The translations under genes were made by a program, and so were the position numbers. A DNA stretch of 34,573 nucleotides from Vicugna vicugna (Eukaryota), in assembly GCA_013265495.1 (NCBI GenBank), contig PNXW01003605.1, forward strand, positions 1-34,573, written 5' to 3'. The stretch's first letter is position 1; every line of letters begins with the position of its first letter. Shown in pieces: positions 1-34,573 of this stretch. Below the pieces are notes generated by a model. That model was not told where the DNA came from and did no database searches. It saw only the letters and a program-made list of their open reading frames with translations.

Positions 1-59
1 GGGCTCACGGAGCCCTCAAAAGCCTTTGGGTTGGGGTGCTCAGAGCACTAGGGGGCACT
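1..59. repeat. Left arm (inner edge, cut by the window) of the outer inverted repeat flanking the EMD-FLNA block
   Basis: Bases 1-59 are the reverse complement of 34515-34573 with one mismatch (pos 46 vs 34528). Similarity stops inward of position 59 and runs off both window ends. Confidence 0.9.
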
Positions 60-1956
60 TAGTTCCCTTATGGAGATCTGGAACCCTGGGAAGTGGGGCC
101 CAGGCTGAAGGGGAGTCCTGGAGGGGGGCCAGAGCCTTTGGGAGCTATCAGAACTCTGGGAGGGGGTGGCTCAGCCCTGGGGCAGGAGGCTTGAAGCCCC
201 ACAGGAGCCTGCAGTCACCTTCCCTCTGGAGGGTGGTGATCAATGCATGTGGTTGCCCTTGGGGAATAAATGAAGAAAGGTGGAGACTGTCTCCTGGGTG
301 GTAACTCTTTCCTTTCTTTCTTCTCTCAAGACAGCACAATGGTTGCCAAGCATACCTAGCCTCCCCTTTCCCTGCAACAGATGGAGGACTGAAGCCCGCA
401 GAGGGCATTCCATCCAGAGGCCTCGGTCTCTCCCCTTCCTTGTGATGCCTCAAGCTCAGCTCTCCTTCCTCCTGTGCTTTCCCTTCTCTCTGCCTCAGCT
501 ACTCCCGAGTGTCAGCACATAAGCCTTGCCATTTCTCTAGGCTTCACCTGCCTCTGCCCAGACTCCTTGGGGCTCCAGCAGTCCCAGGTAGTGAGTGATT
601 GTTGGGGACCATTCTCACAGGCTCAGTCCCTGCTTGTAACATACTTGATTTGGGATCAGTTGCTGAAACAAGATGTCTCACTGTGCCCCTCTGTAGTCCC
701 CATGCACTGGCAACCTGAGTGCTTGTTCTGCTCCTCCCCCAATGCAGGCTCACTGATCTTACCATCAGGCCCTGTTGTCACCGATGAGGAGGCAGCATCT
801 CTGCCCATGCCCACCACCCACCATGAATCATCCAAGCCTCAGCTCTTGCACTGGGATGACAAGGGGCCTGGGGACTCCACGCCAGTTGGCTGGGTGCTGG
901 GGGGGCCAGGTGGGAGTGGCTTGCAGAGGCTGTGGGAGTGGTGAGAAAATCTGAAGCAACTAAGTTCTTTCATTCTTTTCTGTATATATATGTATCTTTT
1001 CTGTATATTTTAAATGCATAAAAATGTGTTACTTTTAGGAAAACACATACATACCAAAAAAGTGCAGGGACAGACTAGGGTGCAGCAAAAAAATGAGCAG
1101 GAGCGTTGGGTGGGAGGGTTCCAGCCCCCGCCCTGGCTGGAGCTCACCATGTGGCCCTGGACAGCCAAGTGCCTGCGAAGACTCAGGAGCCCACAGTGCA
1201 CGTGCAGGTGAGAGGCCAGCCCCGCCACGTCCTGTCTACCATCTGTAGCCAGGAGCCACCAGAGGTGAGGAACTGGTGTCAGGGCCCCACCCTACGGGGA
1301 AGCCCTGGTGGAGCCAGCCTCTCTGCTTTTCAGCCCCCTGCTGGTGGTGTAGAGCCAGAGTGCACGGCCTCACATGGCGTCCTACCCTGGGTTACCTCAG
1401 CACCTGCCGTTAAAGTTGTACCTAAACTTTGAAAATTAGGAAATACCCGTGGCAGAAAACCAGGAGGTAATTGAGAATAGCCAGGTGAGGGACTGGTTTA
1501 CCCGAAGGTGATGGGGCATTTCCGGGTATTGGGAGCCTTCCCCTGTCATTAAACAATCAGCTTTACCCAATAGAAATGGCCCACCAAGCGGAACCCTTTC
1601 CATCTCCCTGCCCTGGGACACCGAGGTGGGCGTCTGCTTTTCCCAGTTAGGACATCCACAACTGACGTCGTCTGTGCCACCTTGCCTGCATTTCCGGGTG
1701 GGCTGTCTGTGGGCTGTAATTCTTAAGTAGTTACAAGAGCTTTGGTAACAAATCAGGAAATGGACCCTACAAGCAAAACACATATGTGCCCATGGGTAGC
1801 ATGTGATCCCTACCCTTAACCGAAAAGAAAAAGGAAGAACCAACAAAGCCAGATGTCAACTCTGGAGACCCAAGCCCCAGAGGCCCTGAGCAGGGGGCAG
1901 CCCAATCCCTCCCCACATTAAAGGGAAGAGCCCACATGTTAAAAATAAACGGTCTT

Positions 1957-1962
1957 TTTATT
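1957..1962 (-). terminator. EMD: EMD polyadenylation signal AATAAA
   Basis: TTTATT on + strand about 370 nt past the EMD stop, followed on the minus strand by a U-rich tract (GTTTATTTTT). Confidence 0.85.
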
Positions 1963-2334
1963 GTGCGTTCATGAAAACAAAGTCAGGGTGGCCTTTGGTT
2001 AATCCCCCCAATGAGGTGACAACGAATCATGCAATGACAACAACCATGTTCTCTCCAGGAGAAGGATCTTGCCCTCCTAGGCCCTTAAGGGTCAGAGGCA
2101 AGCAGGGCCAGGAGGCTCCAGAGGAAGGCCCGCCCAGGCCCACCATGCTGCAGAGGGTCTGGTCCTGCTGCCTCCCTGGCAGGACAAGGCAGGGGAAGCA
2201 AACATTGCCCCTTTCCCAGGACCCCCAAGCTAGAACACAGAAAAGCCCCAACCCCCCTCCCCCAGCAAACACTGCTAAGGCAGTCAGCCAGGACTTCCAA
2301 GAGCAGCTGGCCCCAAAACCACGAAGCCAGACCC

Positions 2335-4160
2335 TCAGGGGTCCGCCCAGAAGGGGTTGCCATCCTCGGCCTGCATGGAGTAGTAAACAAAGAGCAGGAA
2401 GGCAGCGAAGACCAGGAACAGTAGCATCTGACCCCAGAGTGGGACCTGGCGCTCCTGACCCAGACCAGCCCCAGGGGCCTGCTTTTCGGGCCGGATGGCA
2501 CGGCGCGTGAGCCACGAAGGTGGGGGAGATGAAGATGAGGACACTGGAGAGGTAGAGGAGGAGGTGGGGTAATAGGACAGGCCCAGGGAGCTTCTGGAGA
2601 CGTTGGAAACGGGGCGGTAGTGTGCGATGCTCTGGTAGGCACTGTCCCGACCATACACGGGGCGCTCCCTGAGGCAAAGAGGAAAGTGGATAGGTCAGGA
2701 GGGCCTGAGCCCAGAACCAGCCCCAGTCCCTGGCCCTCCCTACTACTCACCTATCCTTGCCTTCTTCTTCGGAAGAGAAAAGACTGTCATCGCGAACCTA
2801 CAGAAGTGAATCAGGGTAAAAAGATACTGCCTGGTGAGGTCAGCGTGGTCCTGTCACATCCCTTAATCCGAACTTCCCTGCCGAACCTACTCTGAATACT
2901 GCTTAAAAGCCGGGGCCTTGCCACCCTCCAGAAGCCTTCTCAGTTCCCGGCCTTATCTGTGGGGCCTTGCCACTTGCTCAGTGACTGTCCTGACTGCCTG
3001 CACCCTACTTTCTGCCCCAGGATTCTCAGAAAGAGCTCAAACCCAGATCCCAGACCAGAGTGTAGGGCATGTCCCAGGTCCTTTAGTCAGACAGTTGTGA
3101 CAGCCCCGCAAAGAAAGGTCCTGACTAGGCAGGCAACTGCTGAGCCCACCTCTCCCTGGAGGCTTAGGGCCACCCCGCAATGTATCCAAACCCAGCGATG
3201 ACCCCCTCAGGTTGTACCCAAGTATAGGGTGCCCGATGGCCAGCTCACCTGGTGGTGGAAGGTGTCAGCATCTGAGAGTGAAGCGGCGGGCTGGCGGAAG
3301 CCCTTGGATGTGCCTACAGACTCAGGCTCCCCGTAAGTCCTGGTGCTTAAGTAACTCTCCTCGTAGTAGTCATCGTTGTAGCCTTGGGAAGGAGGGGTAG
3401 CGGTAGCAGAAGGGGCAGCGGTGTCCCCCGCCTGGCGCGATGGCCCTAATCTGACGCCCACTTGGGGGCCTGTGACATAATTTCTCCCCTCCAAGGCCAC
3501 TATAGGACCATGGGGGTTGAGGTCTCAGGTTCTTCCTGACACCGGGATCCCTGAAGGAGTGGAACGAGGGTGCCAGGGTGCCCACCCCACCCTGGCCTTA
3601 CCCTTGCTCTGGTAAAGTAAAGCGTCCTCTTTCTTGGGCAGATCGTACATATCCGAGTCCACGGACGCCGCATCTAAGTCTGAATGGGGGAGGGGCCAGG
3701 ACCATTTGCTCCAGGCTCCCCTCCCTCTTCCCCGTGCCCCTCCCAACCAGCGGCCCCACCACACCCGCGAGACTCCTTCCTCCCCGTCGCCCAAAGCCTG
3801 TCCCCGTAGGCGGCCAGGTGGAGCTCTGCGGCGGGGGCCTTACCCGAGAACCGATAGGAGAAAGGGGATGCGGACGAGTTCGGGGGCGAGAGCCTCCGCC
3901 TCTGAGTCTCAAACTCGAAGATTTTCTTTTCGTAGAGCTTGCGCGTGGAACCTGGCCAGACAGGGGGCGCAAAGCCGTCAGGGGCGCGGGCTGAGAGCCC
4001 GGGGCAGAGCGGGGAGGGGGCGCGGGGCGAAATGCGGGGAGGGGGCCCGCCCGCAGCCCGCCGCCCGCCGCCGCGTACCCACGACAGGCCCGTGCGGGAT
4101 GTTGTACTGGCGCAGCACGGCGGCTAGCTCGGCGTCCGACAGGCCCGCGTAGTCGTCCAT
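2335..4160 (-). CDS. EMD: Emerin (LEM-domain inner nuclear membrane protein), 260 aa, 6 coding exons
   Basis: Exons (minus): 4160-4079, 3951-3844, 3679-3602, 3382-3249, 2797-2751, 2668-2335. All introns are GT-AG and the total is 783 nt in one frame. Translation: [42 protein letters not shown] (LEM domain) ... [28 protein letters not shown] ... [26 protein letters not shown] (TM) ... NPFWADP*. Confidence 0.98.
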
Positions 4161-5150
4161 GACGGGCAGCGGGCGGCAGAGGCCTAGGGGGTAGCCCGGG
4201 CCTGGCGACACGAGCCGAGCTACGGCTGCCTCGGAACGCGGCGGGGGCAGCGCCAGCGCCTCGGGAGCGGCTGGGCTCACGTCACCCCTGCGTCACGCTC
4301 GCGTCACAGCCGCGGTCTCTGCGGGCCGCGCGCGCTGCGCGGGGCGGAGACAGGCCCGGAGAACCGCCCGCGCAGACTAGTCGAGCCACGGGAACGGGCC
4401 GGGCGGGGCTGGCCAGCCCAGACGTCACAGACGAACGGGATTGGCTGGAGGCAAAAGACGGGCGTAGAGTGCGTCAGCGGCAAAACGGCGCAGACCAGTC
4501 CGGCCGTGGGAGCGGGCGGGGCTGCGCGCCTGGGAGAAGGGGCGGTGTCAGCGGGCCAAGCGTTGTCACACGCTAGCGCGTTCGGGCTTGACACGAGGAG
4601 GGGCGGGGCCTGCGCTCAAGGGGGACGGGCGTAGACCCGTGGGGACGTGGGAGAGGGGCGGGGCCGGCGAGCCGAGGCGTCACCCGCTGGGACATTCGGG
4701 TGAGAAGTGAGGAAGTGAGGAAGTGAGGAGGGGCGGGGCCCGAGGCAGTGAAACCGGCAGAAACTGGCTAGGACGTGGGAGCGGGGCCGGGCCGCGCACT
4801 AGTCGTGCTCGCCCTCTGTGAGTGACGTAGGCTCCGCTCAGTCCCCCCGCAGCCCTCGCGGTCCCCCTTCCCCCGAGATCCAGCGCTTGGGGGTCCCTGG
4901 CCGCGCCCAAGCCGGTCGCTCGGCAGCAGCATGAAGGGGCCCGATCTTAAGGGCAAGCCCTTGGAGAGCGCGGGTCCGGGCGAGGCGCGGCTGCCAGCGC
5001 TGTGCGCGCGTGCGCCACGCCAGCGGAGCCCGTGGCGCCCGGACCCCAGGCCGCCCCCCAGACCCCTTGCCCCAGCTGGCCTGCCCGCTCTGCACTGCCC
5101 TGGGCTGCGCACCTGCGCCCGCCGGTCCCCACCGCCTGCCTCCCTCCCAA
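3750..5150. promoter_or_regulatory. EMD: EMD CpG island and promoter
   Basis: Dense CpG. Repeated CGTCA/TGACG CRE half-sites (~4279, 4290, 4301, 4421, 4471, 4677, 4823), ATTGG CCAAT box at 4440-4444, several GGGCGG GC boxes, tandem GGAAGTGA ETS-like motifs at ~4703-4727. Boundaries are approximate. Confidence 0.8.
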
Positions 5151-5553
5151 CCCGCTCCACCCAGGAGGAAATGGGGCACTGGGCCAGGAGGCCACAGGCG
5201 ATCCAGGAGCAAGCAGCCCTGAAAGGGGCAGGACGTGCCAATGGGCAGTGGCAGAGGCCGCAGGGTGATGCATGCAGAGACAGCGAGTGTCCGTCTGACC
5301 CACCAGCAGTCCACCTGGGGCAGTAGGGGTTTCCTCTCCTGTCTGAATGGGCCCTGAACCCAGTGTGACCCAGGAGGTGGCCGGGCAGGGGTGGGGGGGT
5401 GTCTTCCAGACCCAGAGGGACCTGCGCAGTGGTTCCCTGAGGAACTGCTTGATGGGCTCTGTGCACCTGGGTCTGGGTGGGCTTCACTGTCACGTGGTGC
5501 AGAGGGGGCCCCTGGGACACAGGGGCCAGGGGACTGAAGGGGGCAAACCACCA
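4807..5553. repeat. Inner inverted repeat, left arm (~747 bp)
   Basis: Reverse complement of 10253-10999 with a constant coordinate sum of 15806, so no indels. Mirror ORFs translate identically in several frames (e.g. 4931-5326+ = 10480-10875-). One mismatch seen at 5544/10262. Confidence 0.97.
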
Positions 5554-6837
5554 AGGCCTGATGAGGAGTCTGGACAGTCACTAGGAGTTGGTGAGGACCT
5601 TGATCAGTGAAGAGCTGTCCCATGAAACTGCGAAGGAGGTGACAATCACATTCTAAACAAAGCTAGATGATGGAGTGTGGGGCCAACTGAAGTGCGCCTC
5701 CCAGACCTGGGAGCCTGGGGAGGGGAGGCCCCGTCCTGTCCTCGTAGATGACAGCTGGTAACAGAAGTGAGGAGGGCTCTGGTCAGATCCGGGCAGGTTG
5801 GCCCAGCTGGTGAGGGTCACTGTGGAGGTTTGTTCATGGGGTGAAGAAGATGTAACCATACAGTTAGTGGTGAGAAAATAGGGCCCTGATTTGACTACAC
5901 AGAGCCTCAGAAAATTTGCCCAAAAGTTGCAGGGTTTTCGAGTAAAGGTGAGGCCTACCATATCTCTGGAAGAGGACAAGGCGTGTGGGCCCCGAGACAT
6001 GCAAGGCAGTACGAAAGTCGGGAGAGCCCTAGGCAGGCAGGGTCTTGCTGCTTATCTTTCAGAGCAGGAAGGGAGATGGTGTCAGGGCTCTGGGCTGCTC
6101 AGAGTCTGCCTCATGGAATTTTAAGTTTTGGCAAGATCCAATTCCCCAGCACCTCTCCAAGCCTTCTTCTGCAATGCTGGCCCCTGTCCCGGAGGCTGTC
6201 CTCCCCCATGCCACCCCTCCCCATACAGATCCAAGCTGTTTCCTTATGAGGTCAAAGAATTCTAAGTTTGCCTTCTCCCCTAGGAACACCCCGTCCCCCG
6301 GCACCTACCTTGCCACTCTGCCTTTTATCCCCTCCTCCTCCAGTCACCCCAGTATGAGGTCCCACCACCAGTGGCACCAGGAGCCTGACTTGTGATGGTC
6401 CCCTGTGCCCAAGCCCACCTGGAGACCAAGTCCAGGTGCACTGCAGGCAGACCCATCCCAGACCACCAGAAAGCAGGAGAGCCCTTGACTGTCAGAGCCC
6501 AGAGGCCCTTGGCACCACCCTTATCACGATCACATAGTCGAGTAATTAGGGGCCCAGAGAGGGAGGAGACTTGCGCAAGGGCCCCGAGTGCAGCGATTCA
6601 TTCATGGATTGTTCCCCCAGTTGGTACCTAGTCCTGGGGTTATGATCTGGACAGTGTGGCCCAGAGAGGGTTCTGTGTCAGCAAATGGGCTATTGGGGGA
6701 AATCTGGGGCCTCAAGTGGAGTCTTCCTGGGAACAGGTGGGTAGAAAATTATAGGGAAAAATAATATCAACAAGAATACATTCCTCAGCATTCAGGTCCA
6801 AGGAGACAATTGTTCATTGAGCTGTTAATGTTTTCTT

Positions 6838-6967
6838 TTTCTTTCTTCCTTTTTTTTGGGGGGGTAATTAGGTTTATTTATTTATTCTAATGCAGGTACT
6901 GGGGATTGAACCCAGGACCTTGTGCATGCTAGGCATGCACTCTACCACCAAGCTATACCCTCCCCTC
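6838..6967 (-). mobile_element. tRNA-derived SINE, camelid Vic-1 type, full length with target-site duplication
   Basis: Minus strand reads GGGGAGGGTATAGCTTGGTGGTAGAG (A box) ... GGTTCAATCCCC (B box) ... AATAAATAAATAAACCTAATTACCCCCCC and an A-rich tail. Flanked by a direct repeat TTGAGCTGTTAATGTTTTCTT at 6817-6837 and 6968-6988. Family name is from recalled consensus similarity. Confidence 0.88.
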
Positions 6968-8179
6968 TTGAGCTGTTAATGTTTTCTTAAAGATCAGAAT
7001 CTTAATCCTTTGGTTCAATACAAAACTTAAGTTTTCTCTTCAAGGATGTTAAAAATCTTATAGGTTTTGCCTGGCAACAGAATGCTGTAAAACGTTGCTC
7101 AGATAGTAACAAAAGTCATAAGATGGTGAATATTGTGAAAATTAATGTGTAGGAGGTGGTCACAATTAATATGTACCAGTGAGTGATTAGCTGACCAAAA
7201 GCCTCTCAAAGAACGCCTTGTGTTCCAAGCCTAGAAGACACCAGTTTACCTTGGGACTATTGGCATGGCTAGTTGGAGATTCAGCTTGCCTTGATTCTAG
7301 TGGTTTTCAGGAACTTTCAACACAAGGAGGAAAGGTCTTTAATTTATTACGATCTTTACTAGAGAACAGCTGGTGCTTACAAACCTGCATTCCCTAGACC
7401 TGGAAGAAGTAGAGACCCAGAGATGCATGTGGGGAGCCTTGGCCAGGAGCTTTCTCCCTCCACCCTTTTTCTTTCTCTCCTTTAATGCAGTGGAATTGAA
7501 TAGGAAATGTCAGAGTCCTTTTCAGGTAGCAAGGGAAAGGCTCATTTTGTGAACCACCTGTTTCAGTAACTTGTGTCACCCTGTGTGTGTGCACACAAGT
7601 ACTGGCTCAGGATGTACAGTGTAGTTCTTATTGGGGTTTGTGGGCAAAAGGTTTAAGACACTGCTTTATGTGGCCTTCCCCAAGAAAGTGATACTTGCAT
7701 TGAATACGAAGCTACCAGGAAATAGGTGCATAGAAGAGGAAGAGGGAGCCTGGCAGTGCCAGGGTGTGGCTGTGCCCACCCAGTTCACAGACCCTTGGCT
7801 CTGTGGCTGCCCCACTACAACTGCCCACTCCTGGACTTAAGGACTGCACCTAACTGTGCTCCTGAGAATTCAGTCCGTCTCTGTTGCCCCCGCCCAGGCT
7901 TGGCACCCAGTAGGGGCCAAATCAGTGGCAGTCAGGATGCTAGCTCATCCCGGGTTTCAGGTCCCTGGTCCATGGCAGATTTTTGGCCGTAGGCGCTCAG
8001 TGAACACCTGCAACGGCCCGTTGCCCACCTCCACCCCAGACGGCAGACTCCGACTTGCCTGGCCAGCCCAGGCTTGAGGCAAGGGAAGGGAGCCATGACT
8101 ATGGGCCACCTGGAGGAGGTGGCCTTTCCTGCAACAGGGGCCCTGCAGACCCTCAGGGCTCTTGAGGAGAGCACCCCCC

Positions 8180-8620
8180 TCGCCAGTCGGTGAGCTCATA
8201 GGGCGGGGGGCGTCGCCAGGCGGCCGGGGCGCTGTAGCTCACGGCGCGCCCCCGCCCCCCCCCGCCCCCGCCCCCGGCTCCTGGGCGATTTTACCAATTA
8301 AGGCTTTCTCGCCGGGCCGGGCCGGGCCGGGCCGGGCGCGGGGCGGGGGTGCGGCCAACAAGAAGGCGGGCGGCGGCGGCCCATTCGCGTGGAGGCGCGC
8401 GGCGCGCAGCGGACGCCAGTGGAGCCCCGAGGCGCCCGGTGCGGGCTCACAGGCAAGCCAGGCGCCACCCCGTGGTCGCCAGCCGTCCGCAGGACAGCAG
8501 GTGAGGCCTCCGCGGCCGGCTCCGAGCGGGATGGTCACGGAGCTGCTCGCAGACCGAGGGCGGGGGTGGCGAAGTCCGGCGGCGAATCCTGAGAACTCAG
8601 GCGCGGGCGCGCACCTAGGC
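8180..8620 (+). promoter_or_regulatory. FLNA: FLNA upstream promoter CpG island
   Basis: CpG-dense, with GC boxes, a (GGGCC)n run at 8313-8337 and a perfect CArG box CCAATTAAGG at 8294-8303 about 80-90 bp before exon 1. Confidence 0.85.
8383..8500 (+). other. FLNA: FLNA non-coding exon 1 (5' UTR)
   Basis: Starts ATTCGCGTGGAGGCGCG, resembling the recalled human FLNA mRNA 5' end. Ends in a strong donor CAG|GTGAGG at 8500/8501 and splices to the acceptor TTTCCGTAG|CGCAACC at 11362/11363. The TSS is approximate. Confidence 0.82.
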
Positions 8621-9389
8621 CGGGGCCAGGTGCAGCTGGGGTGCCTTCCCTTGGGGCCGACTTACCTGGTTTACCTGAAAATCTGTGTGTGCCTGGGAGT
8701 GTGGGAGCCCTAAGTCATGGGGGTCCCTGACAGAGGGGGAGTCTGAGCGTTTGGCAGGACACAGGCTCTCCTGCGCGCCGGTGAGCTGGCCACTGCATGG
8801 CTATCTGGGAAGGAGGGGCCCAGAGAGCAGGACATTGTGTGGGCTGAGGGCGAGTGGCCACGTGGAAGGACAATTCACAGCCAGTATGCTTCCTGGGAGG
8901 GCGACAGTGGGCTCCTCGCTGGCACCAGTCCTCTAGGTACCAACTGCTTTGGGCACAGGGAGTTGGCTGCCAGGCTGCTGTGCTCTGTGGGAGGTCAGGC
9001 AGGGGTGTGGCCCACACAGGAAGCAGGGGCTCCTCCAAGAGGCCAGATTCCCAGGCTGGGTCCTGTCCCAGGTTGGCTCAGAGCTGGATGTTCACTGCCA
9101 GCCAGGATGCAAGCAGCAACATCCCCAGATTCCCATGCCACCTGGGTCCAGGAGAAGTAGGTGAAATCCGATGGGAGAGCCACCAGTGTGTGCTCCAGGG
9201 TGCAAGTCAAGATGGGAACTCAGGACTTAAGTGCCCTCACCTGCCATCTGGACTTGCCTTAGTGGCCCATCCTGCCATTCTTCGACTTTCTTCACCAGCT
9301 GAATCGCCCCTGTGGGAGGGCCTGGCCTGGGGTCTGAGGACTGGGGGTGGGGTGGGAGGCGGAGTGTATCTAACATCCAAGAATCTACT

Positions 9390-9399
9390 CCAAATAAGG
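9390..9399. promoter_or_regulatory. CArG box (SRF site) CCAAATAAGG, FLNA intron 1
   Basis: Perfect CC(A/T)6GG match. Confidence 0.55.
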
Positions 9400-10081: not shown

Positions 10082-10091
10082 CCATATTTGG
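10082..10091. promoter_or_regulatory. CArG box CCATATTTGG, FLNA intron 1
   Basis: Perfect CC(A/T)6GG match. Confidence 0.6.
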
Positions 10092-10252
10092 GCATGACAT
10101 GCCAGCTGACCCAGGGCCTCCTCTCCCACCGCTCTTTAGCAGATAATTTAGTTAATACTAGTCTGCAGCTCAATCTAAGAATCAAGCAGGAGGGGCAGAG
10201 ACATGCTCCTCAGACACAGGCCACACTCCTCAGCAGGCCTTGGCAGCCGTCA

Positions 10253-24100: not shown

Positions 24101-27100
24101 TTCTTCTGGGCCCTGCCCATGGGGGAGTAAGGGACAGTGTAGGATGCAGGCAGCCGTTTTGGGCCAAGGTGGTTGAGTGGCTCGCAGGTGTCCTTGCAGT
24201 AGCAGTGCTTGACCCTTGATGCTTTGAGAGGGCCTGAGGTAATCCCGGGCCTGACTGAGCTTGGGCCAACTGCCTCCCCTGGGCTCTGCCACACAGGACC
24301 CCGAGGGCAAGCCCAAGAAGACGCACATCCAAGACAACCATGACGGCACGTACACGGTGGCCTACGTGCCAGACGTGACGGGCCGCTACACCATCCTCAT
24401 CAAGTATGGTGGCGATGAGATCCCCTTCTCCCCATACCGTGTCCGGGCTGTGCCCACTGGGGATGCCAGCAAGTGCACCGTCACAGGTGAGCCTGCCCGC
24501 CAGCGGCCACGGCACTCAGCACGGGGCTTGGGTGTGCCTGTGTGCAAGGGCTCGCTGCTTGGGGCGGCGTGTGGGAGTGGGGGCCGCCCCCTTGAGTGAC
24601 TCACCTGACCTTTCTCCTTGCTCTCTGCCCTCTCACCTCAGTGTCAATCGGAGGTCACGGGCTAGGTAAGCTGCTTGCTGGGGCCACTCCCAATGCCCCT
24701 CCTGCCCAGAGGGCAGCTTCCTTTCCTCTTCCGTGCTGATTCCCAGGACAGTTCCAGCTGCAGCTCTTGGCAGGGACAGAGGGGGGAACTGGAGGGTTAG
24801 GGCCCAGGGAGGCCTCCGGAGCTGAGCATGAGCACTCCAGCCCTCCCCTTCTCTGGGCCTCCGTTTCCCCATCTGAGAAGTCGGGTTGCAGCTGAGAGCT
24901 TTGGGGTGTGGTGCATCCTGAGAGGCACCCCACTGGGGGCTCTGGGGTCTGGGGATCTGGGCACCCCCGGGAAGTCCCAGGGGTGGGCAGCAAACCCTTT
25001 CTTTTCACTTCCTCCTTCTGTGTTAAGGGCTCTCACATGGGGTCTCCCTCAAGCCACGGGAGTCCCCGGCCCTGGCCAGATCCACAGACCCCCACCCCTA
25101 CCTCCCAGAGGCCTCTGCGTCCCGGGCCGGGGGAGGCGCAGACTGCATGAGTGGGCGGGGCTGGCTAGTAGTGCGGCAGCACCGGCGTCGACTGCTTGGG
25201 CGGCCAGCATGGCGGGGCCCGGCCCAGCCTCAGAGCCCCAAAGTGCACTCGGTGGCCCACCCACCCTCTCCACATCCTTCCCTCCCCCTACTCCCTCAGC
25301 AGTGACGTTATTCAGATGGTCCCCAACTAGGCATGGAGATCCTCCTGCTCAGGCATGGGAGGGGAGAGCCAGCCCAGGCCAAGGGCACCTATGAGAGGCA
25401 GTAACTACACGGGAGCCTCGGAAGGCTGCAGGCCTGGAGCTTGGGCGAGGCGGCCAGGGATAAAGTTAGAGGGTGGCTGGGGTTTTGTGGCAGGGGTTGA
25501 GGGACTCTAGAGCGGGCCTCGGATTTGAGATGACAGGCATGTGTGCCTAGGGCAGGGGGACAGGGCCTTGGGGACCATGGGCAGGGTCAAGACTTAGCTG
25601 ACAGAGTGGTCTCAGTTTACCTGGCCACTGTGTGCAGAATGGAGGCAGAGAGCCCAGCTGGGGAGCTGAAGTCACTTTTGGACCAGTTGGAGGGGTAGCT
25701 TGGTCTAGGCCAGTGATGGGGGACTTGAGAGGGGAACCAAATTGGGGGGTGTACTTTGAGGATAGAGCAGCTGAGACATGCTGATGGGCTGGGCGCTGGG
25801 CAGGGGAAGTGGGGAGTCCAGGCTAACTGTGAGGCCAGAAGCCTGAGCCACTAGCTAGACCGTGGGTCCACGTTCCAAGCAGGGAGAAAAGGTGTGGCTG
25901 CATGTGAGGTGAGGCCTCCCCGGGCAGGGTGGGCAGTAATGGGCCAGGTCTAGAGCTCAGGAGAGCTGCGGAAGGCCAGCATGGAGCTCAGCAGAGTGAG
26001 AGCCCTTGGCAGAGATGAGAGCTCAGCGGCAGGCTGGCTGGGGGTTGGGGGGTCCTTGAACTTAGCCCCTGAGTTGGTTTCGGTGCTCCCAGCTGCTTCC
26101 CTAGCAGAGGCTGGGCTACAGAAAGCACTTTCGCTGCCAGGCCTCACAGCCCACAGCCCCCCAAGCCTCCACGGCTGAGCCAAGATCATAACGTCACTGT
26201 CCCCCACTTTCCTCGGGCACTCTGGGGCCCTGGAGGCTGCTCAGCTGCTCCGCTCTTGCAACCTAGCAGCCGTGGCTCTGGCTTGGGCGTCCTGTCCCCT
26301 TCCCCCTGGGTGCTGCCGCTGCCACTGCCTGCTGCGCTGTGCTGCCTGGGTGCTAACCCTGCTGCCTACCTGCTTCCCTGCTCCCAGCTCCTGCCTGCAA
26401 CGGGCCATGCCCAGCCGTCCCTTTCTGCAAGCCTCCAAGCGAGAGTTCTCAGTTGTCAGGAAACTCCAATTTCACCTTCAGGCCGGGGTGGGGCGGGAGG
26501 CGAGTGTCACATTCCCCCACGCTGCAGCAGGACTCCGCCTCACTGCGTCTGCACACAGCACTGGGGGCCAGGCCACAGGGGCGAAGGCAGCTGTGGGCCC
26601 AGCTGGAGCACTGGCATTGGTCAGTGTGGTCCATGGCGCCAGCTGAGGCCAAGTTGGCAGGGGAGGTGGCGGCCAATGCTGGTGCCCTGACAGCATGTGG
26701 CCCTCCAGGCCCTTCCTTCCTCTCAAGACACCTGAGTTCCATCCGTCAGGCCTTCCCCACATAGGGGATTTCCCCAAGATAGCACTGCCTGGCTTGAGGT
26801 GGCTCAGGGGAACCTTTCCTGCCTTCTGAGAAATTACTCACCATCCCAGCTTGGGGGGGGGGTGGGGGCAGGAGGCCTGGCTATGCTTGGTGGCAGTAAG
26901 AGGCCTGGGCGGGTGGCAAGTGGACAGGAGCAGGCCGAGCACCAAGCTCATGCACTGGCCCCCACTTTGGGGACCCACCCTGCCCCACCAGGTGCTGGCA
27001 TCGGCCCCACCATCCAGATTGGAGAGGAGACAGTGATCACCGTGGACACCAAGGCGGCGGGCAAAGGCAAGGTGACCTGCACCGTGTGCACACCTGACGG

Positions 27101-30100
27101 CTCTGAGGTGGACGTGGATGTGGTAGAGAATGAGGACGGCACCTTCGACATCTTCTATACGGCTCCCCAGCCTGGCAAATACGTCATCTGTGTGCGCTTT
27201 GGCGGCGAACACGTGCCAAACAGCCCCTTCCAAGTGACGGTCAGGAGGGGCCAGGGGTGAGGGGTCTGGGCAGGGCCTGGCCTGCCCCCTGCCCTGGGGC
27301 TCATGTGTGACCAGGGTCTCTAGCTCTTGTACGTTGCTCTGCAGGCTCTGGCCGGAGATCAGCCCATGGCACAGACCCCACTGCGGCCTCAGCAACTGGC
27401 CCCACCATACACCTATGCCCAGGGTGGCCAACAGACCTGGGTATGGCCTGGCCCACCTCTTCCTAGCTTACCTAGCCCTAGGGGACACTTGGGGACTGGC
27501 CAGCTGGGTGTCCCGTGTGGCCCTGTTCTGCTGCCTTTGTGGAGGGACCCCATATCCTCCCACTTGGGACTCCCCTCCCTTCAACAGCTCCCGACCCAGG
27601 CCCTTTGTGTCCACTGCAGGCTCCAGAAAGACCCTTGGTGGGTGTCAATGGGCTGGATGTGACCAGCCTGAGGCCCTTCGACCTTGTCATCCCCTTCACC
27701 ATCAAGAAGGGCGAGATCACTGGTGAGCAGGGCGGGAAGGAGCTCTAGGGAGGCCAGGGTGTGCCGACGGGCTGCCCTGACCCCAACCCCACTGCCCTGC
27801 AGGGGAGGTACGGATGCCTTCGGGCAAAGTGGCGCAGCCGGCTATCACCGACAACAAAGATGGCACTGTGACCGTGCGCTACGCGCCCAGCGAGGCTGGC
27901 CTGCATGAGATGGATATCCGCTACGATAACATGCACATCCCAGGTGCGTCACGCAGCCAGCCGTCACCACCTCACAAGGGCCTGGGGCTGGGGGAAGGAC
28001 TTGGGGACAACCCAAGGCCCCCGTTCCACATAGCCCCCTTCCTGCCTTAGGAAGCCCCCTACAGTTCTACGTGGATTATGTCAACTGTGGCCACGTCACA
28101 GCCTACGGGCCTGGCCTTACCCATGGGGTGGTGAACAAGCCTGCTGTTTTCACGGTCAACACCAAGGATGCAGGAGAGGGTGAGCGTTGGCTCTAGTCTT
28201 AACCTGCCTGTGTGTTGTGAGATGCCATCATCTAATAGAGAACTGTATGCTGGAGACACTCCCCAAAGGGCATTCCCCACCCTGCCACCTGGGCCTCTCC
28301 TTGCCTGTTGGGGCTTCTCATTGGTGCAGTGTCTCTGGTCACAGTTCCCACCCTCACCCACAACTCTCTCCAGGGGGCTTGTCCCTGGCCATTGAGGGCC
28401 CATCCAAAGCAGAAATCAGCTGTACTGACAACCAGGACGGGACGTGCAGCGTCTCCTACCTGCCTGTGCTGCCTGGTGACTACAGCATCCTGGTCAAGTA
28501 CAATGAGCAGCACATCCCAGGAAGCCCCTTCACTGCCAGGGTCACAGGTACGTGGTACCTGGAGCAATGACAGAACGAGGCAGGTGGCAGGGTAGGCGCA
28601 GTCTCCCTCTGTGCCTGGACACACAGTGACTGTCCCCCACCAGGTGATGACTCGATGCGCATGTCCCACCTTAAGGTGGGCTCTGCCGCTGACATCCCCA
28701 TCAATATCTCGGAGACGGACCTCAGCCTGCTGACAGCCACGGTGGTGCCGCCCTCGGGCCGGGAGGAACCCTGTCTGCTGAAGCGGCTGCGCAATGGCCA
28801 CGTGGGTAAGAGGCTGGGGAGCCGCACCTTCTGGAAAGGAAGGAGGCTGGCAGGGGGTGGGCAAACCTTTCCCTGGCTGATGGCCCCACCCTATGTTGTG
28901 CCCAGGGATCTCGTTCGTGCCCAAGGAGACAGGAGAGCACCTGGTGCACGTGAAGAAGAATGGTCAGCATGTGGCGAGCAGCCCCATTCCAGTGGTGATC
29001 AGCCAGTCGGAGATTGGGGATGCCAGCCGTGTGCGGGTCTCAGGCCAGGGCCTTCATGAAGGCCACACCTTTGAGCCTGCAGAGTTTATCATCGACACCC
29101 GTGATGCAGGTGGGCGGTGGTGGCCTGGAATCTGGGGTGGGACCACTCTCTTTAGCCTCCTAACTCAGGCGTATCCCTCCTGCAGGCTATGGTGGACTTA
29201 GCCTGTCCATCGAGGGTCCCAGCAAGGTAGATATCAACACAGAGGACCTGGAAGATGGCACATGCAGGGTTACCTACTGCCCCACAGAGCCTGGAAACTA
29301 CATTATCAACATCAAGTTTGCCGACCAGCACGTGCCTGGTGAGGGCAGTGCCCACGCACCCTCCCCCATGGCTGGGCGACCCTCCTTGCCATACTCTGGG
29401 CTTTGCCTGCAGAATGTAACCTGTGTGGGATGTGGGCTGTGTTTTCTTCCTACAGGCAGCCCCTTCTCCGTGAAGGTGACAGGCGAGGGCCGGGTGAAAG
29501 AGAGCATCACACGCAGGCGACGGGCTCCTTCGGTGGCTAATGTTGGCAGTCATTGTGACCTCAGCTTGAAGATCCCTGGTAGGAGCTATAGCAGGGCCAG
29601 GAAGGGGTCCTGGGGAGTCCTGGGTGCCAGCCCTAGGTGGCCCCAAGCAGAGGGCTGGGGCCTGGGTCTCCTGCTCACCAGGCTACCCCTCACCTACAGA
29701 AATTAGCATCCAGGACATGACAGCCCAGGTGACCAGCCCATCAGGCAAGAGCCATGAAGCTGAGATTGTGGAAGGCGAGAACCATACCTACTGCATCCGC
29801 TTTGTGCCTGCTGAGATGGGCATGCACACAGTCAGCGTCAAGTACAAGGGCCAGCACGTGCCTGGGAGCCCTTTCCAGTTCACCGTGGGACCCCTGGGAG
29901 AAGGAGGAGCCCACAAGGTCCGTGCCGGGGGCCCTGGCCTGGAGAGGGCTGAAGCTGGAGTGCCAGGTAGGCCTACTTCCTGAGGGGCTCTTGGTCTTCT
30001 GGGGGAGGGTCGGGGGGTGGGGAGGAAGTAGCCAGCAGCCATGCTGGTCTCAGCCATGCTCAGAGAGGGCTGAGGCCAGGACAGCAGCCCTCCATGAGGA

Positions 30101-33029
30101 CACACTACTTTCCCACAGCTGAATTCAGCATTTGGACCAGGGAAGCAGGCGCTGGGGGCCTGGCCATTGCTGTTGAGGGCCCCAGCAAGGCCGAGATCTC
30201 CTTTGAGGACCGCAAGGATGGCTCCTGTGGTGTGGCCTATGTGGTCCAGGAGCCAGGTACTGAAGCCCTGGCTGGGCCTGGGGAGGCAGTTCCTGGGTGT
30301 GGGTATTGGTCTGGGTCTATGCAGACATCCCTGCCCAGCTCCCACCCTTTACTGTGAGGTCCCAGGGCCACTTAGGCTGTTTGGGAGAGACAGCAGGTTT
30401 GAATGCTGACAAGTGGGGGCCTCCCAGCATGCCCTCTGTTCTCTCTCCCTGCCCAGGTGACTACGAGGTCTCAGTCAAGTTCAACGAGGAGCACATCCCA
30501 GACAGCCCCTTTGTGGTGCCTGTGGCTTCTCCGTCTGGTGACGCCCGCCGTCTTACTGTTTCTAGTCTTCAGGTGAGACACCGAGAGAAACCGCCCGTCT
30601 GGGGCTCCTGGGCCCGGCCAGACCAGAGCCGCCGCACAGAGCAGGCCTTGGCCCTGTGTCAAGTGACCCGCCCAGCCCAGCTCGGAGCGCCGGGCTTCTG
30701 CTCTGGCCGGGTGCAGCCCACGCTTGGGGTCGGCAGGAAGTACCCCTGACCGCCACGTGGAGTTTTTCTCGTGTCTCAGGTCTAAAGGCTTTGAACAGAA
30801 GCCTGTGCCCCTTGAGCACCAGGGCTGAGGTTTAAAGAGGGACAGCCTGCTAGGGCTGCATGCTGCCCGCAGGGCGGGGCCACCCTGCTTCCTGCTGCCC
30901 CTGTGTGTGAATGTGGAGCGTGGGTTTGGGAGTGGGGGTGTGTGTGCCTGTAGCTTGCTGCCCCTTGAGAATAGGTGGCTCTCCCTCTTTAAACCAAGTT
31001 GGACGCCAGATGGGTAAGTGCAACCCTGTGGGCCTTCTGCTTCTGGGGCCCTGTCTTCCCTTGCTCCAGCCTCAGCCCCCTAACCACATCTGCTGTGCTT
31101 CCAGGAGTCAGGGCTAAAGGTCAACCAGCCAGCCTCTTTTGCAGTCAGCCTGAATGGGGCCAAGGGGGCGATCGATGCCAAGGTGCACAGCCCCTCAGGA
31201 GCCCTGGAGGAGTGCTATGTCACAGAGATTGACCAAGGTGAGGCCCTGTCCCTGCCCGGCCACCCAGCCATCTGCCCTGGCCCCGCTGGGAGCAGTGGGC
31301 CGCCCCTGGGCCCGTCCCGCTGGCTGGAAGCAGGCTGAGAGTACAAAAGGCAGACACAGACTCTGGAAGCAGCCCGGACAGGGCACAGGTGCCTGGCTTC
31401 TTCAGCCAGGCAGCCCTTTCCCCTCGTTACCTAAGCCCTTGGGAATCTGGCTCAGCTTCACCCTTGAGGCTTCAGGAAGCCTGTGCTGTGGAGTGTGGGT
31501 GTCTAGCATGGTCCCCAGAAAAAGCTGAGTGGGCCACCTAAAGCTACTGGACTCACTCTGGTGGACAAGGGAAGCTCCTCAGATGCCACGTGCTCGGTTG
31601 GAGGAGGGACCCCGGGCCCACAGCATGCTCCTCTGTTCCTCAGATAAGTATGCCGTGCGCTTTATCCCACGGGAAAATGGCATCTACCTGATTGATGTCA
31701 AGTTCAACGGCACCCACATCCCTGGAAGCCCCTTCAAGATTCGAGTTGGGGAGCCCGGGCATGGAGGGGACCCAGGCCTGGTGTCCGCCTATGGAGCTGG
31801 CCTGGAAGGCGGCATCACAGGTAGGTCAGTGGGTGCAGCTTCTGGTGTGTGAACGTGGCTGTTAGGGCCCCTCCTCCCAGCTCTCAGTGACAACAGGAGG
31901 CGTGTGGAGGTGACCAGGCTACGCTGGGCCGGGGGTGGGGGTGGGGAACAGGCTGGACCAGCTCTGCCTAACCTCCTGTGCCCCCAGGGAGCCCAGCTGA
32001 GTTTATTGTGAACACAAGCAATGCAGGAGCAGGTGCCCTATCAGTCACCATCGACGGGCCCTCCAAGGTGAAGATGGATTGCCAGGAGTGCCCTGAGGGC
32101 TACCGCGTCACCTACACGCCCATGGCACCTGGCAGCTACCTCATCTCCATCAAGTATGGTGGCCCCTACCACATTGGGGGCAGCCCCTTCAAGGCCAGAG
32201 TCACAGGTGAGCCATGCACCAGACTGCTGCCACCCACCCAACTCAATGCCTGGCACTCTGGCCACCTCTGACCCACCTGCTCTGCCCTACAGGTCCCCGT
32301 CTCGTCAGCAACCACAGCCTCCATGAGACATCATCAGTGTTTGTAGACTCCCTGTCCAAGACTGCCGGTGTCCCCCAGCATGGGGCCCCAGGCCCAGGCC
32401 CCTCCGATGCCAGCAAGGTGTTGGCCAAGGGTCTGGGGCTAAGCAAGGCCTACATGGGCCAGAAGAGCAGCTTCACGGTGGACTGCAGCAAAGCAGGTGG
32501 GCACCCAGGCCCCAGCCCTTGGCCAGTGCCTGGGAACATGGGAAGGGGTGAAGTGGGGGTGGGACAAATGCCTTTTGGGGCATGGCTGTCACTTCTAGAG
32601 CAACTTCCCACCTGGGCTTCCCTGCCATCTCCTCTACCCTTCAGGAAAGTGCCTTCGAGGAGCTGGAGTTTCCCCTATTGGTTTGGGGTGGGGGTGCTGG
32701 CAGCTCGGCAGAAAGGGCTGTCACCTGAAAATGGGTGAGGTGGGAAGGGGAGACTCCAGAACAGGAGGAGAGATCAGTGCAGTCACAGCTGAAGGGAGGG
32801 GACTTGGAGCCTGGAACTGAGGCGCCTTCCCCTACCCCTAGGCAACAACATGCTGCTGGTGGGGGTACATGGGCCACGGACGCCCTGTGAGGAGATCCTG
32901 GTGAAGCATGTGGGCAGCAGGCTCTACAGTGTCTCCTACCTGCTCAAGGACAAGGGGGAGTACACGCTGGTGGTCAAATGGGGTGATGAGCACATCCCAG
33001 GCAGCCCCTACCGTGTCCTGGTGCCCTGA
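11478..33029 (+). CDS. FLNA: Filamin A, 2647 aa (CH1-CH2 actin-binding domain + 24 filamin Ig repeats), 47 coding exons
   Basis: Coding exons: 11478-11850, 14877-15125, 15214-15311, 15432-15579, 15991-16109, 16202-16279, 16370-16532, 16622-16822, 17369-17506, 17589-17712, 17829-17965, 18067-18260, 18429-18542, 18630-18773, 19471-19594, 19678-19838, 19925-20015, 20096-20265, 20537-20654, 20754-21016, 21233-21830, 21915-22088, 22170-22332, 22410-22570, 22666-22836, 23243-23366, 23457-23613, 24297-24486, 24642-24665, 26992-27239, 27345-27440, 27620-27722, 27803-27943, 28051-28179, 28374-28547, 28644-28805, 28906-29109, 29186-29338, 29456-29578, 29700-29966, 30119-30256, 30457-30572, 31105-31237, 31644-31820, 31988-32206, 32293-32496, 32842-33029. 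All introns are GT-AG; 7944 nt in one frame. Starts [39 protein letters not shown] and ends [12 protein letters not shown]. Confidence 0.99.
13068..13077. promoter_or_regulatory. CArG box CCATATAAGG in FLNA intron 2 (candidate enhancer)
   Basis: Perfect CArG, with AP-1 TGAGTCA at 12923-12929 and MCAT-like GGAATG at ~12860 nearby. Confidence 0.6.
13999..14026. repeat. Short (CCT)n microsatellite
   Basis: acctcctcatcctcctcctcctcctcctc. Confidence 0.7.
17061..17117 (+). other. FLNA: FLNA poison cassette exon (9N), 57 nt, in-frame TAG
   Basis: AAG|AGCTCG...TCAACG|GTACTT, preceded by a long CU-rich tract (~16965-17055). After exon 9 (phase 1) it reads GAG CTC GCT CCA GTT GTC TAG, with the stop at 17078-17080. 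Position matches the known PTBP1-repressed neuronal FLNA poison exon. Confidence 0.8.
18850..19400 (-). mobile_element. Old L1 (L1M/L1MB-like) 3'-end fragment in FLNA intron 15, antisense
   Basis: Typical antisense L1M 3' motifs: tgtaca..gtagttttgagtaagttcagagttgcgcagccatcacca; tttcactcagcat; gttgatggacatttggg..ttttggctgttgtgaacagtgccgctgtgaac; ggttgcaccatttt. Subfamily is not resolved. Confidence 0.8.
24642..24665 (+). CDS. FLNA: FLNA 24-nt alternative microexon 30 (VSIGGHGL)
   Basis: Polypyrimidine tract then CAG|TGTCAATCGGAGGTCACGGGCTAG|GTAAGC. Frame-preserving; corresponds to the known 8-aa FLNA isoform difference. Confidence 0.9.
   Translation, partial: CQSEVTG
24845..24885 (-). mobile_element. 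Possible MIR core fragment
   Basis: ctctgggcctccgtttccccatctg resembles the MIR core (ctcagtttcctcatctgtaaaatg). The match is very short. Confidence 0.4.
25400..26000 (-). mobile_element. Degenerate L2 LINE fragment in FLNA intron 30
   Basis: Purine-rich stretch with L2 antisense motifs (ctggccactgtgtgcagaatggaggcag..; gcttggtctagg; gctgatgggctgg; gcctgagccact; gtctagagctcaggagag). Boundaries are approximate. Confidence 0.65.
29456..29578 (+). CDS. FLNA: FLNA exon 40 (123 nt): the 41-aa segment absent in the var-1 isoform; carries RRRRAPS (Ser2152)
   Basis: Symmetric phase-1 exon encoding [41 protein letters not shown]. Confidence 0.85.
30548..30803 (+). other. FLNA: FLNA Q2341 (Q/R) A-to-I editing site with intronic editing-complementary sequence
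   Basis: The last codon of exon 43 is CAG (30570-30572; c.7021-7023, codon 2341). Sequence ~30548-30592 is imperfectly complementary to ~30760-30802. Confidence 0.8.
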
Positions 33030-33308
33030 GCTCTGTGCCAGCCAGCAGCTCCCAGGATGAGAAGTGCCCCTGCGCCCACCCTCTGCCACCCGAGCAGCAA
33101 CCCCACCTCAGCCCTGGAGCCCTGGCCACCCTGTCACTGCAGCCGACCCTGCCCTGTGCTGCACTCACCTGCCTCCACTCCAGCAAAGGAGAGAGGCGAG
33201 CAGAGGGAGCCCTCTGGTGGCCCTGCCTATCTTCTTTGGTTCTGGGAGGGGTGAGGGGTGGGGGTCCTGTGCACAACCACCCGCTAGTTCTCTTCCCTAG
33301 CCAAGAGG

Positions 33309-33314
33309 AATAAA
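33309..33314 (+). terminator. FLNA: FLNA polyadenylation signal AATAAA
   Basis: AATAAA 280 nt after the stop, followed by a GU/U-rich downstream element (gtgtctctagctttct). Confidence 0.88.
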
Positions 33315-34514
33315 ATTCTGCTTCCATTCTCTTGGGAGTGTCTCTAGCTTTCTGGCAAAGGGCCCGACAGGGTGGATGGAAGTGTGGGCCCAGAACACAG
33401 GCTGCTGGATCTCCAGGCCAGCCCCCTCCGACTGCCTGGCCCCCGTGGCTCCTGCTTCCCAACACCTTTGCCCCACCTACCCAGCCAGCCACTACTGACT
33501 CCGGGAGGCTCCATCTGCCTTGCCTCCTCTCTGCCTCCCTGGGTTCAGGCAGTACAGGGCAAGAGGTGTATTCCCCCTCAGGACAGGGCCTGCTGCTAGT
33601 GAACTTGTTCCAGGCCACACCAGGAACAGGTGTTGCCTGATGGGAAGGCCAGGCTACAGGAGGTATAAAGTGCTGGGTGGGAGAACCAGATAAGCAGGAC
33701 TTAAATCACAGTGGGCCCTGGCCATCCTCCTGGCATCTTAAATGTGTCACTATCCCCTGGATAGGGCACTGTCATAAGGCTCCCTGCCCTGGGGGTAAGG
33801 CTGTGGGTCTGAAGGTTCCTCAGTGGACAGATGGACATATTCAGGGCACTGCCCATTGGTCACAGAGTTTGTCCCATTCCCACTTGAGCTCCAGGTGTCC
33901 TCGCCTGTCCTGCACTACGTCCCTGGGTGAGCCTTGCCCTGGTTCCCTCTTGCCATCATCACACTAGGGCATCACACTAGCCCCTGTTTCTCTGTCCATC
34001 ACTTCCCACATCCCTGCGCAAGTGTCTCCCACTATAAAAAAGAAACCAAATCACCCGTGCCCCATCCCAAGCCCTCCTAAACTTTCCTGCCTTATGCACA
34101 CAACTCTGATGTTCCACTTGCAGCCACGCAACCCCCCACCCCACCCCGGCAACCTCAACCGCCATCTGGAGAGAAGGGCCTCAAAGTCAGCCAAGGCTAA
34201 CATATTCAGGCCTCTCACAACTGGGCAGCTCCAAGCATGCTAGTCATGCCCCGCTTCTGGAAGCACTTTCTAGACCAGGATGAGCTGACAGATCCCAGGC
34301 AGGGTTGCTTCTCAGCCACAGAAAAGCATGAGCTCTGGGAGGGAGAAGAGGAGGATCAGGAAGTGGACAATGGCCGGCTCCTTAAGACCCAGACCAAGGG
34401 CTTCACCCAGGTCCAGCCCCTCCTAAGCAGAGAGGGAGCAGGCACAGCAGAGGCAGCCACTGATCCACAGGAAAGTAGCATGGGGCACCACTGTTCCGGC
34501 ACCTGGGCTGGCCT

Positions 34515-34573
34515 AGTGCCCCCTAGTCCTCTGAGCACCCCAACCCAAAGGCTTTTGAGGGCTCCGTGAGCCC
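34515..34573. repeat. Right arm (inner edge, cut by the window) of the outer inverted repeat
   Basis: Reverse complement of 1-59 (58/59). Confidence 0.9.

What the first reader, a model, noticed from the sequence alone, without database searches (positions are those of the whole stretch)
1..34573. Nested inverted-repeat architecture: the window ends are themselves an inverted pair
Seen: bases 1-59 match the reverse complement of 34515-34573 (58/59) and the match runs off both ends. Known: in human and other eutherians the FLNA-EMD block lies between large inverted duplications kept similar by gene conversion and has inverted recurrently. Inference: these are the inner edges of that duplication in this species. 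With the inner pair, two independently flippable levels give up to four locus configurations.
Basis: partly seen in the sequence, partly recalled or inferred. Interest (0 to 1): 0.7.

Follow-up and report, generated by a model that had tools for sequence, protein, structure and literature searches.

The report
Camelid EMD-FLNA block between inverted repeats
This camelid sequence is the EMD-FLNA gene pair of the X chromosome, cut off at the inner edges of what is most likely the inverted duplication already known to flank and flip these genes in other mammals; a second, smaller inverted pair around the probable FLNA promoter is present, but no flipping was seen.

Summary
Observation confirmed. 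Bases 1-59 match the reverse complement of 34515-34573 at 58/59; 1-45 are identical and the match runs off both ends at the same base. The window is a camelid EMD-FLNA block. Its 34,455-nt spacer is 0.92 times that of human palindrome P24 (HsInv0389), so the ends are most likely the inner edges of the known flanking duplication (about 85%).

The base-exact symmetry suggests a draft assembly that stopped at a collapsed repeat. It did span the 737-nt inner repeat, so the outer one is probably longer. I obtained no sequence beyond the window, so arm length, orthology and orientation are untested.

The inner pair (737 nt identical, diverged inner tail) brackets the probable main FLNA promoter and exon 1. 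A relative's FLNA-side arm differs by about 1.5%, so the identical arms imply conversion, a young copy or assembler collapse. An inner flip would turn the FLNA promoter towards EMD, so it is probably not neutral. 'Four configurations' is geometrically possible but unobserved. Verdict: a new member of a known kind, with one untested twist.

The parts
1..59 (+). Left outer arm, inner edge (45 nt identical, mismatch at 46, 13 more identical); runs off the window
34515..34573 (-). Right outer arm, inner edge; reverse complement of 1-59; 1,201 nt after the FLNA AATAAA; runs off the window
2335..4160 (-). EMD (emerin): six coding exons 4160-4079, 3951-3844, 3679-3602, 3382-3249, 2797-2751, 2668-2335; 260 aa, open frame, GT-AG introns
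   Evidence: model; LEM, E 3e-8; last exon 100% identical to Camelus ferus emerin X2
4807..5543 (+). Left inner arm, identical core (737 nt), next to the EMD promoter CpG island; CpG-rich at its outer end
5544..5587 (+). Diverged inner tail of the left arm (one mismatch, 12-nt indel, then 24/28 identity)
5588..10205 (.). Inner spacer, about 4.6 kb, the segment an inner inversion would flip
8150..8500 (+). CpG island with six GC boxes and a candidate FLNA non-coding exon 1 (about 8385-8500, donor GT at 8501); inferred main FLNA promoter
   Evidence: position fits the human CAGE promoter; no transcript evidence here
10206..10262 (-). Diverged inner tail of the right arm
10263..10999 (-). Right inner arm, identical core, in inferred FLNA intron 1; also present in a relative (P0119)
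11478..33029 (+). FLNA (filamin A) coding span, ATG 11478 to TGA 33027-33029; 29 merged filamin-matching blocks, all on +; the full exon chain was not built

Best explanation
The window is the whole spacer of the FLNA-EMD palindrome of a camelid X chromosome. Shown: two 59-nt inverted ends enclose EMD and FLNA. Inferred: these are the inner edges of two long, near-identical arms, and the record stops 45 nt past the last difference between the arms because a k-mer assembler could not tell them apart beyond that point. By analogy with human P24, arm-to-arm gene conversion keeps the arms alike, and an occasional crossover between them inverts the 34.5-kb block without breaking either gene. Inside lies a second, older-looking 0.78-kb inverted duplication with a homogenised 737-nt core. 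It places the same sequence upstream of the EMD promoter and in FLNA intron 1. It is long enough to recombine, but a crossover would point the FLNA promoter and exon 1 at EMD, so most exchanges that persist should be non-crossover conversions. The locus probably toggles between two common states (outer flip), not four.
For: Gene identities. Geometry: spacer 34,455 nt against human 37,619 nt, ratio 0.916. Prior: inverted repeats flank FLNA-EMD in human and 15 other mammals (PMC8327919, passage). Draft behaviour: P24 is scored 'Missing' in Pan_tro_3.0 and Mmul_8.0.1 and 'Accurate' in the long-read Clint_PTRv2 and Mmul_10 (supplement rows). The exact repeat at the ends is 45 nt and symmetric to the base, and the same record carries the 737-nt inner repeat with no N. 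Both pairs show an identical core with a decaying inner edge. In a relative the FLNA-side arm differs at 6 of 183 codons read in one frame, about 1.5% in DNA; about 11 arm-to-arm differences would be expected under independent evolution and 0 of 737 are seen. Human NAHR inversions use repeats from 654 bp (PMC6748972, passage).
Against: Only 59 nt of each outer arm is visible, and nothing outside the window could be fetched. Repeat sequence is reported not to be orthologous in all species, so the camelid arms may be an independent duplication. Perfect identity of the inner arms could be produced by an assembler merging copies. P0119 lies on 5 contigs up to 3,376 nt long and runs through both junctions of the FLNA-side arm. 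A DNA k-mer contig should break there if the relative had two identical arms, so either those contigs come from FLNA pre-mRNA or the relative lacks an identical second arm; this was not resolved. The k-mer break argument rests on general knowledge of assemblers; the assembly method is not known.
Confidence: 0.85

Rival explanations
1. Both ends are short or interspersed repeats (two opposed copies of a SINE, LINE or LTR fragment, or a small local duplication), not the edges of a large duplication.
For: Only 59 nt are visible. Assemblies also break at interspersed repeats (general knowledge). Genome-wide copy number could not be tested.
Against: There is no other copy in the window (best other hit 12 nt, E 0.08). 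Rfam finds only the tRNA-like element at 6891-6962 in 2100-34573 and nothing at the right end. Two separate insertions would rarely be 58/59 identical and end at the same base. The position matches the known repeat. A 737-nt repeat was spanned in the same record.
Confidence: 0.08
2. One reading: both levels invert independently and all four arrangements segregate in camelids, the inner one acting as a promoter cassette that swaps between FLNA and EMD.
For: The inner arms are 737 nt and 100% identical, above the 654-bp lower end of human NAHR inversions. All four states of a nested inversion were seen elsewhere on the human X (10.1101/2021.12.20.472354, figure legend). After a flip the exon-1 donor would lie 3,146 nt from the EMD ATG, against 2,978 nt from the FLNA ATG now. 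A TATA-like site and GC boxes before FLNA exon 2 could keep FLNA expressed. P0119 carries the left-type residue at the one arm variant while joined to the FLNA flank.
Against: No flipped junction was observed. P0119 starts exactly at the right-tail ATG (10252), whereas a left tail offers an in-frame ATG further upstream, so the unflipped state with an ancestral base is the simpler reading (inference). The flip removes the probable main promoter from FLNA, whose loss of function causes disease in humans.
Confidence: 0.1
3. The inner pair is partly an assembly product: a real but diverged (or single-copy) sequence was written twice from one collapsed contig, so the nesting is weaker than it looks. 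This rival concerns the inner level only.
For: The ends suggest a short-read k-mer assembly (inference), and such assemblers merge near-identical copies (general knowledge). The relative's contigs pass through the arm unbroken.
Against: The inner tails are homologous but differ (mismatch, 12-nt indel, 24/28 identity), which copy-pasting of one contig would not create. 14 of 24 listed runs hold 0.95-0.98 of 1,088 sampled words of 1-10000, among them three studies with no row flagged as a possible source. That supports the left arm and spacer as real DNA but does not test the junctions.
Confidence: 0.15
4. The ends are terminal inverted repeats of a mobile element, virus or vector.
For: The repeats are terminal and inverted. 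The 59-mer can form small hairpins.
Against: The content is two ordinary host genes. There is no exact match of the first 24 nt in viral contigs or metagenome contigs, and no match of the 59-mer in 72,556 plasmids. Folding is not better than shuffles (z -1.3).
Confidence: 0.01

Closest known systems
Human X palindrome P24 / inversion HsInv0389 (FLNA-EMD; Small 1997 and Caceres 2007, both seen only as cited in PMC8327919, PMC3961182 and two bioRxiv papers)
   Same: [quoted passage not shown]
   Different: Arm length (10.05 and 10.09 kb in hg38) and orthology are unknown here, and no orientation data exist for this window. None of the passages I read mentions an inner pair, but I could not read Caceres 2007.
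Nested inversion on the human X with all four states (10.1101/2021.12.20.472354, figure legend)
   Same: An inner inversion inside an outer one, four combinations.
   Different: A different locus, and there the states were observed; here none was.
HsInv0030 (CTRB1/CTRB2) and HsInv0241 (AQP12A/B): inversions that exchange a first exon or promoter (PMC6748972 passage; PMC3961182 section 14)
   Same: Inverted repeats bracket first exons, so a flip rewires the gene starts.
   Different: Those swap exons between paralogues. Here one promoter would move between two unrelated genes, FLNA and EMD.
Short identical inverted promoter blocks on the X, such as the TCEAL pair in this genome (scan notes e1-7855935 and e1-7855936, unchecked)
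   Same: About 1-kb identical inverted arms at CpG-rich gene starts, read as gene conversion.
   Different: There the arms contain the promoter and exon 1 of paralogues. Here they lie beside the promoters of unrelated genes.

Membership tests
FLNA-EMD flanking inverted duplication (P24 / HsInv0389 type) | Spacer holds FLNA and EMD, divergently transcribed | tested here: met
FLNA-EMD flanking inverted duplication (P24 / HsInv0389 type) | [quoted passage not shown] | tested here: met
   Edges lie 1,486 nt after the FLNA stop and 2,276 nt after the EMD stop; spacer 34,455 nt
FLNA-EMD flanking inverted duplication (P24 / HsInv0389 type) | Arms are kilobases long | tested here: inconclusive
   Only 59 nt visible; indirect support from symmetric ends and the spanned 737-nt repeat; no outward sequence found
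FLNA-EMD flanking inverted duplication (P24 / HsInv0389 type) | Arm identity above 99%, kept by gene conversion | tested here: inconclusive
   58/59 at the edge; too short to judge, and no orthologous arm for comparison
FLNA-EMD flanking inverted duplication (P24 / HsInv0389 type) | Arm sequence orthologous to other eutherians; TKTL1 and RPL10 on the outer sides | not testable with these tools
   No flanking DNA held; no note on these neighbouring loci among the 146 notes for this genome (one search returned only an RPL10 retrocopy)
FLNA-EMD flanking inverted duplication (P24 / HsInv0389 type) | Both orientations occur within or between species | not testable with these tools
   All 24 listed runs are kept as contigs; no reads were laid on the window
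NAHR inversion substrate (inner pair) | Inverted repeats of 654 bp or more and above 90% identity | tested here: met
   737 nt at 100%; range from PMC6748972
NAHR inversion substrate (inner pair) | Arms more alike than orthologues (concerted evolution) | tested here: inconclusive
   0 of 737 between arms against about 1.5% to a relative's FLNA-side arm; the relative's other arm was not seen; collapse or recent copying not excluded
NAHR inversion substrate (inner pair) | Flipped junctions exist | tested here: inconclusive
   P0119 is the only outside datum; it fits the unflipped state best
Interspersed repeat (SINE/LINE/LTR) at both ends | Other copies or a recognisable tRNA-derived head | tested here: not met
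   No other copy in the window; no Rfam hit at the right end; genome-wide copy number not testable
Viral or transposon terminal inverted repeats | Match to viral or vector ends; element-encoded proteins | tested here: not met
   content is EMD and FLNA

The most novel reading that the evidence does not exclude
The 737-nt inner repeat is a live inversion switch nested in the FLNA-EMD palindrome. In some camelid X chromosomes the main FLNA promoter and exon 1 point at EMD, while FLNA runs from a proximal promoter before exon 2. The flipped state would yield either full-length emerin with a new 5' end (acceptor-like sites at 4444 and 4529) or, by splicing to EMD exon 2, a message whose first in-frame ATG (Met74) gives a 187-aa emerin without the LEM domain. 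That would be a heritable or somatic promoter swap between two unrelated mammalian genes.
Probability: 0.1. Interest if true: 0.75.

Novelty: new member of a known kind. Interest (0 to 1): 0.3.

Why it matters
The outer pair most likely adds camelids to a well-studied case of an old palindrome that flips recurrently; on its own that is confirmatory. It also warns that the orientation of EMD-FLNA in this assembly cannot be read from this record. The inner pair matters more. If it inverts, it rewires the promoter of a disease gene (FLNA) to a nuclear-envelope gene (EMD). If it never inverts despite perfect identity, it is a compact test of whether selection, not repeat length, decides which inverted repeats toggle. 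Junction PCR or long reads could answer either question.

Tried and rejected
Extending the window: no own genome is held. The first 24 nt found 0 matches in metagenome contigs and viral contigs. An alignment of 11 emerins found 596 pattern matches in metagenome contigs, none confirmed. The 59-mer found nothing in plasmids. The right-end 274 nt found no look-alike in the scan's windows, and the 'relatives' look-up was empty.

Rows with small shares (X19-X24) are not used.

Caceres 2007 was not held under DOI, PubMed id or PMC id; Clapham 2012 was not held. Searches for an inner repeat or a camelid description returned 0, 2, 3, 3, 5 and 24 papers (15 of the 24 listed). None of the passages I read describes one. 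The library lacks most subscription papers, and I did not read the camelid genome papers listed.

A coding role for the inner arms was rejected: no Pfam hit for the 131-aa ORF, that exact sequence is not in the collection, and the relative's copy changes frame inside the arm. A special hairpin at the ends was rejected (z -1.3). The other 19 inverted pairs are 25-42 nt at 71-92% and were treated as chance or filamin-repeat paralogy.

Full report
Observation. The first 59 bases match the reverse complement of the last 59 at 58 positions (E 2e-22). Positions 1-45 are identical, 46 differs and 47-59 are identical. Base 1 pairs with base 34573. Further inward there is no similarity (best score 28, against 21-29 in 20 shuffles). 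In 20,000 simulated end pairs the longest exact terminal run was 7 nt. The inner pair is 4807-5543 with 10263-10999, identical over 737 nt, then a mismatch, a 12-nt indel and 24 of 28 matches. These are the only exact repeats of 31 nt or more in the window, which contains no N.

Genes and organism. EMD lies on the minus strand: six exons give an open 260-aa frame with a LEM domain. Its last exon is 100% identical to Camelus ferus emerin isoform X2, against 95-96% for the best whale and ass hits, and the model matches that isoform at 233 of 234 residues. The organism is therefore a camelid. FLNA lies on the plus strand from ATG 11478 (best PDB match filamin-A, E 2.5e-77) to TGA 33027-33029. Filamin matches form 29 merged blocks, none on the minus strand; I did not build the full exon chain.

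Fit to the known repeat. Human palindrome P24 has arms of 10,050 and 10,086 nt and a spacer of 37,619 nt holding FLNA and EMD (PMC8327919, supplement rows). The window's spacer is 34,455 nt, a ratio of 0.916, with edges 1,486 nt after the FLNA stop and 2,276 nt after the EMD stop. The same paper says inverted repeats flank these genes in 15 further mammals but are not orthologous in all of them (passage). The human inversion, HsInv0389, is polymorphic and recurrent (PMC3961182, passages; 10.1101/2021.12.20.472354, passages; 10.1101/2020.04.20.051185, first half of the text). I could not read Caceres 2007 and know it only through these citations.

Why the ends are symmetric. A window cut at arbitrary points would almost never end at mirror positions of two arms. 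A k-mer assembler does end there: the unique contig stops about one k-mer past the last difference between two copies, here 45 nt past position 46. This is inference from general knowledge of assemblers; the method used here is unknown. The same record runs through the 737-nt inner repeat, so whatever stopped it at the ends is probably longer. Primates show the same pattern: P24 is 'Missing' in Pan_tro_3.0 and Mmul_8.0.1 and 'Accurate' in the two long-read assemblies. No own genome is held and scans found nothing. Against an interspersed repeat, the 59-mer has no other copy in the window, and the only Rfam hit in 2100-34573 is a tRNA-like element at 6891-6962.

The inner level. The spacer holds a CpG island with six GC boxes and a candidate non-coding exon ending at a donor at 8500/8501. 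In human, a FLNA CAGE promoter is listed at chrX:153,602,991-153,603,011 (PMC4682858, table passage) and an exon-2 primer at hg19 153,599,438 (PMC8719250, passage), about 3.56 kb apart if both use hg19. The primer site is at 11637-11653 here, 3.27 kb from the candidate exon start, again a ratio near 0.92. So the island is probably the main FLNA promoter; no transcript evidence was obtained. A flip would place the donor on the minus strand, 3,146 nt from the EMD ATG. Splicing to EMD exon 2 would give a message whose first ATG is out of frame (35 codons) and whose second, Met74, gives 187 aa without the LEM domain. Acceptor-like sites at 4444 and 4529 would keep emerin whole. FLNA would be left with a TATA-like site at 11338 and nearby GC boxes. 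Human NAHR inversions use repeats from 654 bp (PMC6748972, passage), so the arms are long enough. Loss of FLNA function causes disease in humans, so this flip is unlikely to be neutral.

One outside datum. A search with a frame open across the arm returned 1 protein among 2,663 candidates: P0119, a gene call on 5 contigs, the longest 3,376 nt. It follows the FLNA-side arm from 10252 into the FLNA flank to 11359. It differs from the window at 6 of 183 codons in the arm and 7 of 120 in the flank, and changes frame inside the arm, so it comes from a relative, presumably another camelid, and the frame is not a gene. About 11 differences would be expected between the window's arms if they had evolved apart for that time; there are none in 737 nt. 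With the diverged tails, this favours an older duplication homogenised by conversion, but a recent copy or assembler merging is not excluded. Two points cut the other way. First, P0119's contigs cross both arm junctions, which a DNA k-mer contig should not do if two identical arms were present; FLNA pre-mRNA would explain it, but their origin is unknown. Second, P0119 has the left-type residue at the one arm variant. It starts at the right-tail ATG position, and a left tail has an in-frame ATG further upstream, so I read it as the unflipped state with an ancestral base.

Reads. 14 of 24 listed runs hold 0.95-0.98 of 1,088 sampled words of bases 1-10000. Three rows are flagged as possible sources; three studies (P1, P4, P5) and one row without a study have no such flag. 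All 24 are kept as contigs and none was laid on the window, so junctions, depth and orientation are untested.

Comparison and verdict. The outer pair works like, and is probably a member of, the FLNA-EMD palindrome family: gene content and geometry are met, while arm length, orthology and toggling are untested. Nested inversions with four states and inversions that exchange first exons are known on other human loci. My searches found no description of an inner pair at this locus, within a library that lacks Caceres 2007 and most subscription papers. Supplements of the bioRxiv papers, 6 of 18 files of PMC6748972 and 2 of 13 files of PMC8327919 were not searched and may bear on this. Scan notes on similar structures are unchecked and are not counted as support. 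Best reading 0.85; four live states 0.10; new member of a known kind; interest 0.3.

Noticed in passing
window 6870-6967: A tRNA-like element (Rfam RF00005, 6891-6962, minus strand) next to a T-rich tail in the inner spacer. It is probably a tRNA-derived SINE; the name Vic-1 (camelid SINE) is recalled, not tested. Its orientation could mark the state of the inner spacer.
   Followed up: partly
window 11214-11451: A TTTAAA at 11338 and five GC boxes just before FLNA exon 2: a possible second FLNA promoter outside the inner spacer.
   Followed up: partly
window 10058-11362 (+), 4768-5577 (-), 4838-5662 (-): Long stop-free frames (434, 269 and 274 aa) run through the GC-rich inner arms. A relative's copy changes frame, so they are not genes.
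   Followed up: yes
window 10750-10983 and the mirror positions in the left arm: The arm carries a CRE-like TGACGT, an NRF1-like site and a GC box at its CpG-rich outer end. EMD and the FLNA exon-2 region therefore share an identical upstream block in the same transcriptional sense.
   Followed up: no
window 4700-4729 and 8311-8347: Short tandem arrays (GTGAGGAA x3.9; GCCGG x7.2) lie in the EMD and the probable FLNA promoter islands.
   Followed up: no
proteins P0025 and P0095: Camels have further emerin-like proteins. P0025 is a 260-aa copy with 235 identities to the window's emerin, in a cluster from three Camelus species. P0095 is a 197-aa form listed under two accessions on two contigs. 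Both are probably retrocopies.
   Followed up: no
   Followed up: no
window about 33957-33980: An 11-nt direct duplication separated by 2 nt lies between the FLNA 3' end and the right outer arm.
   Followed up: no
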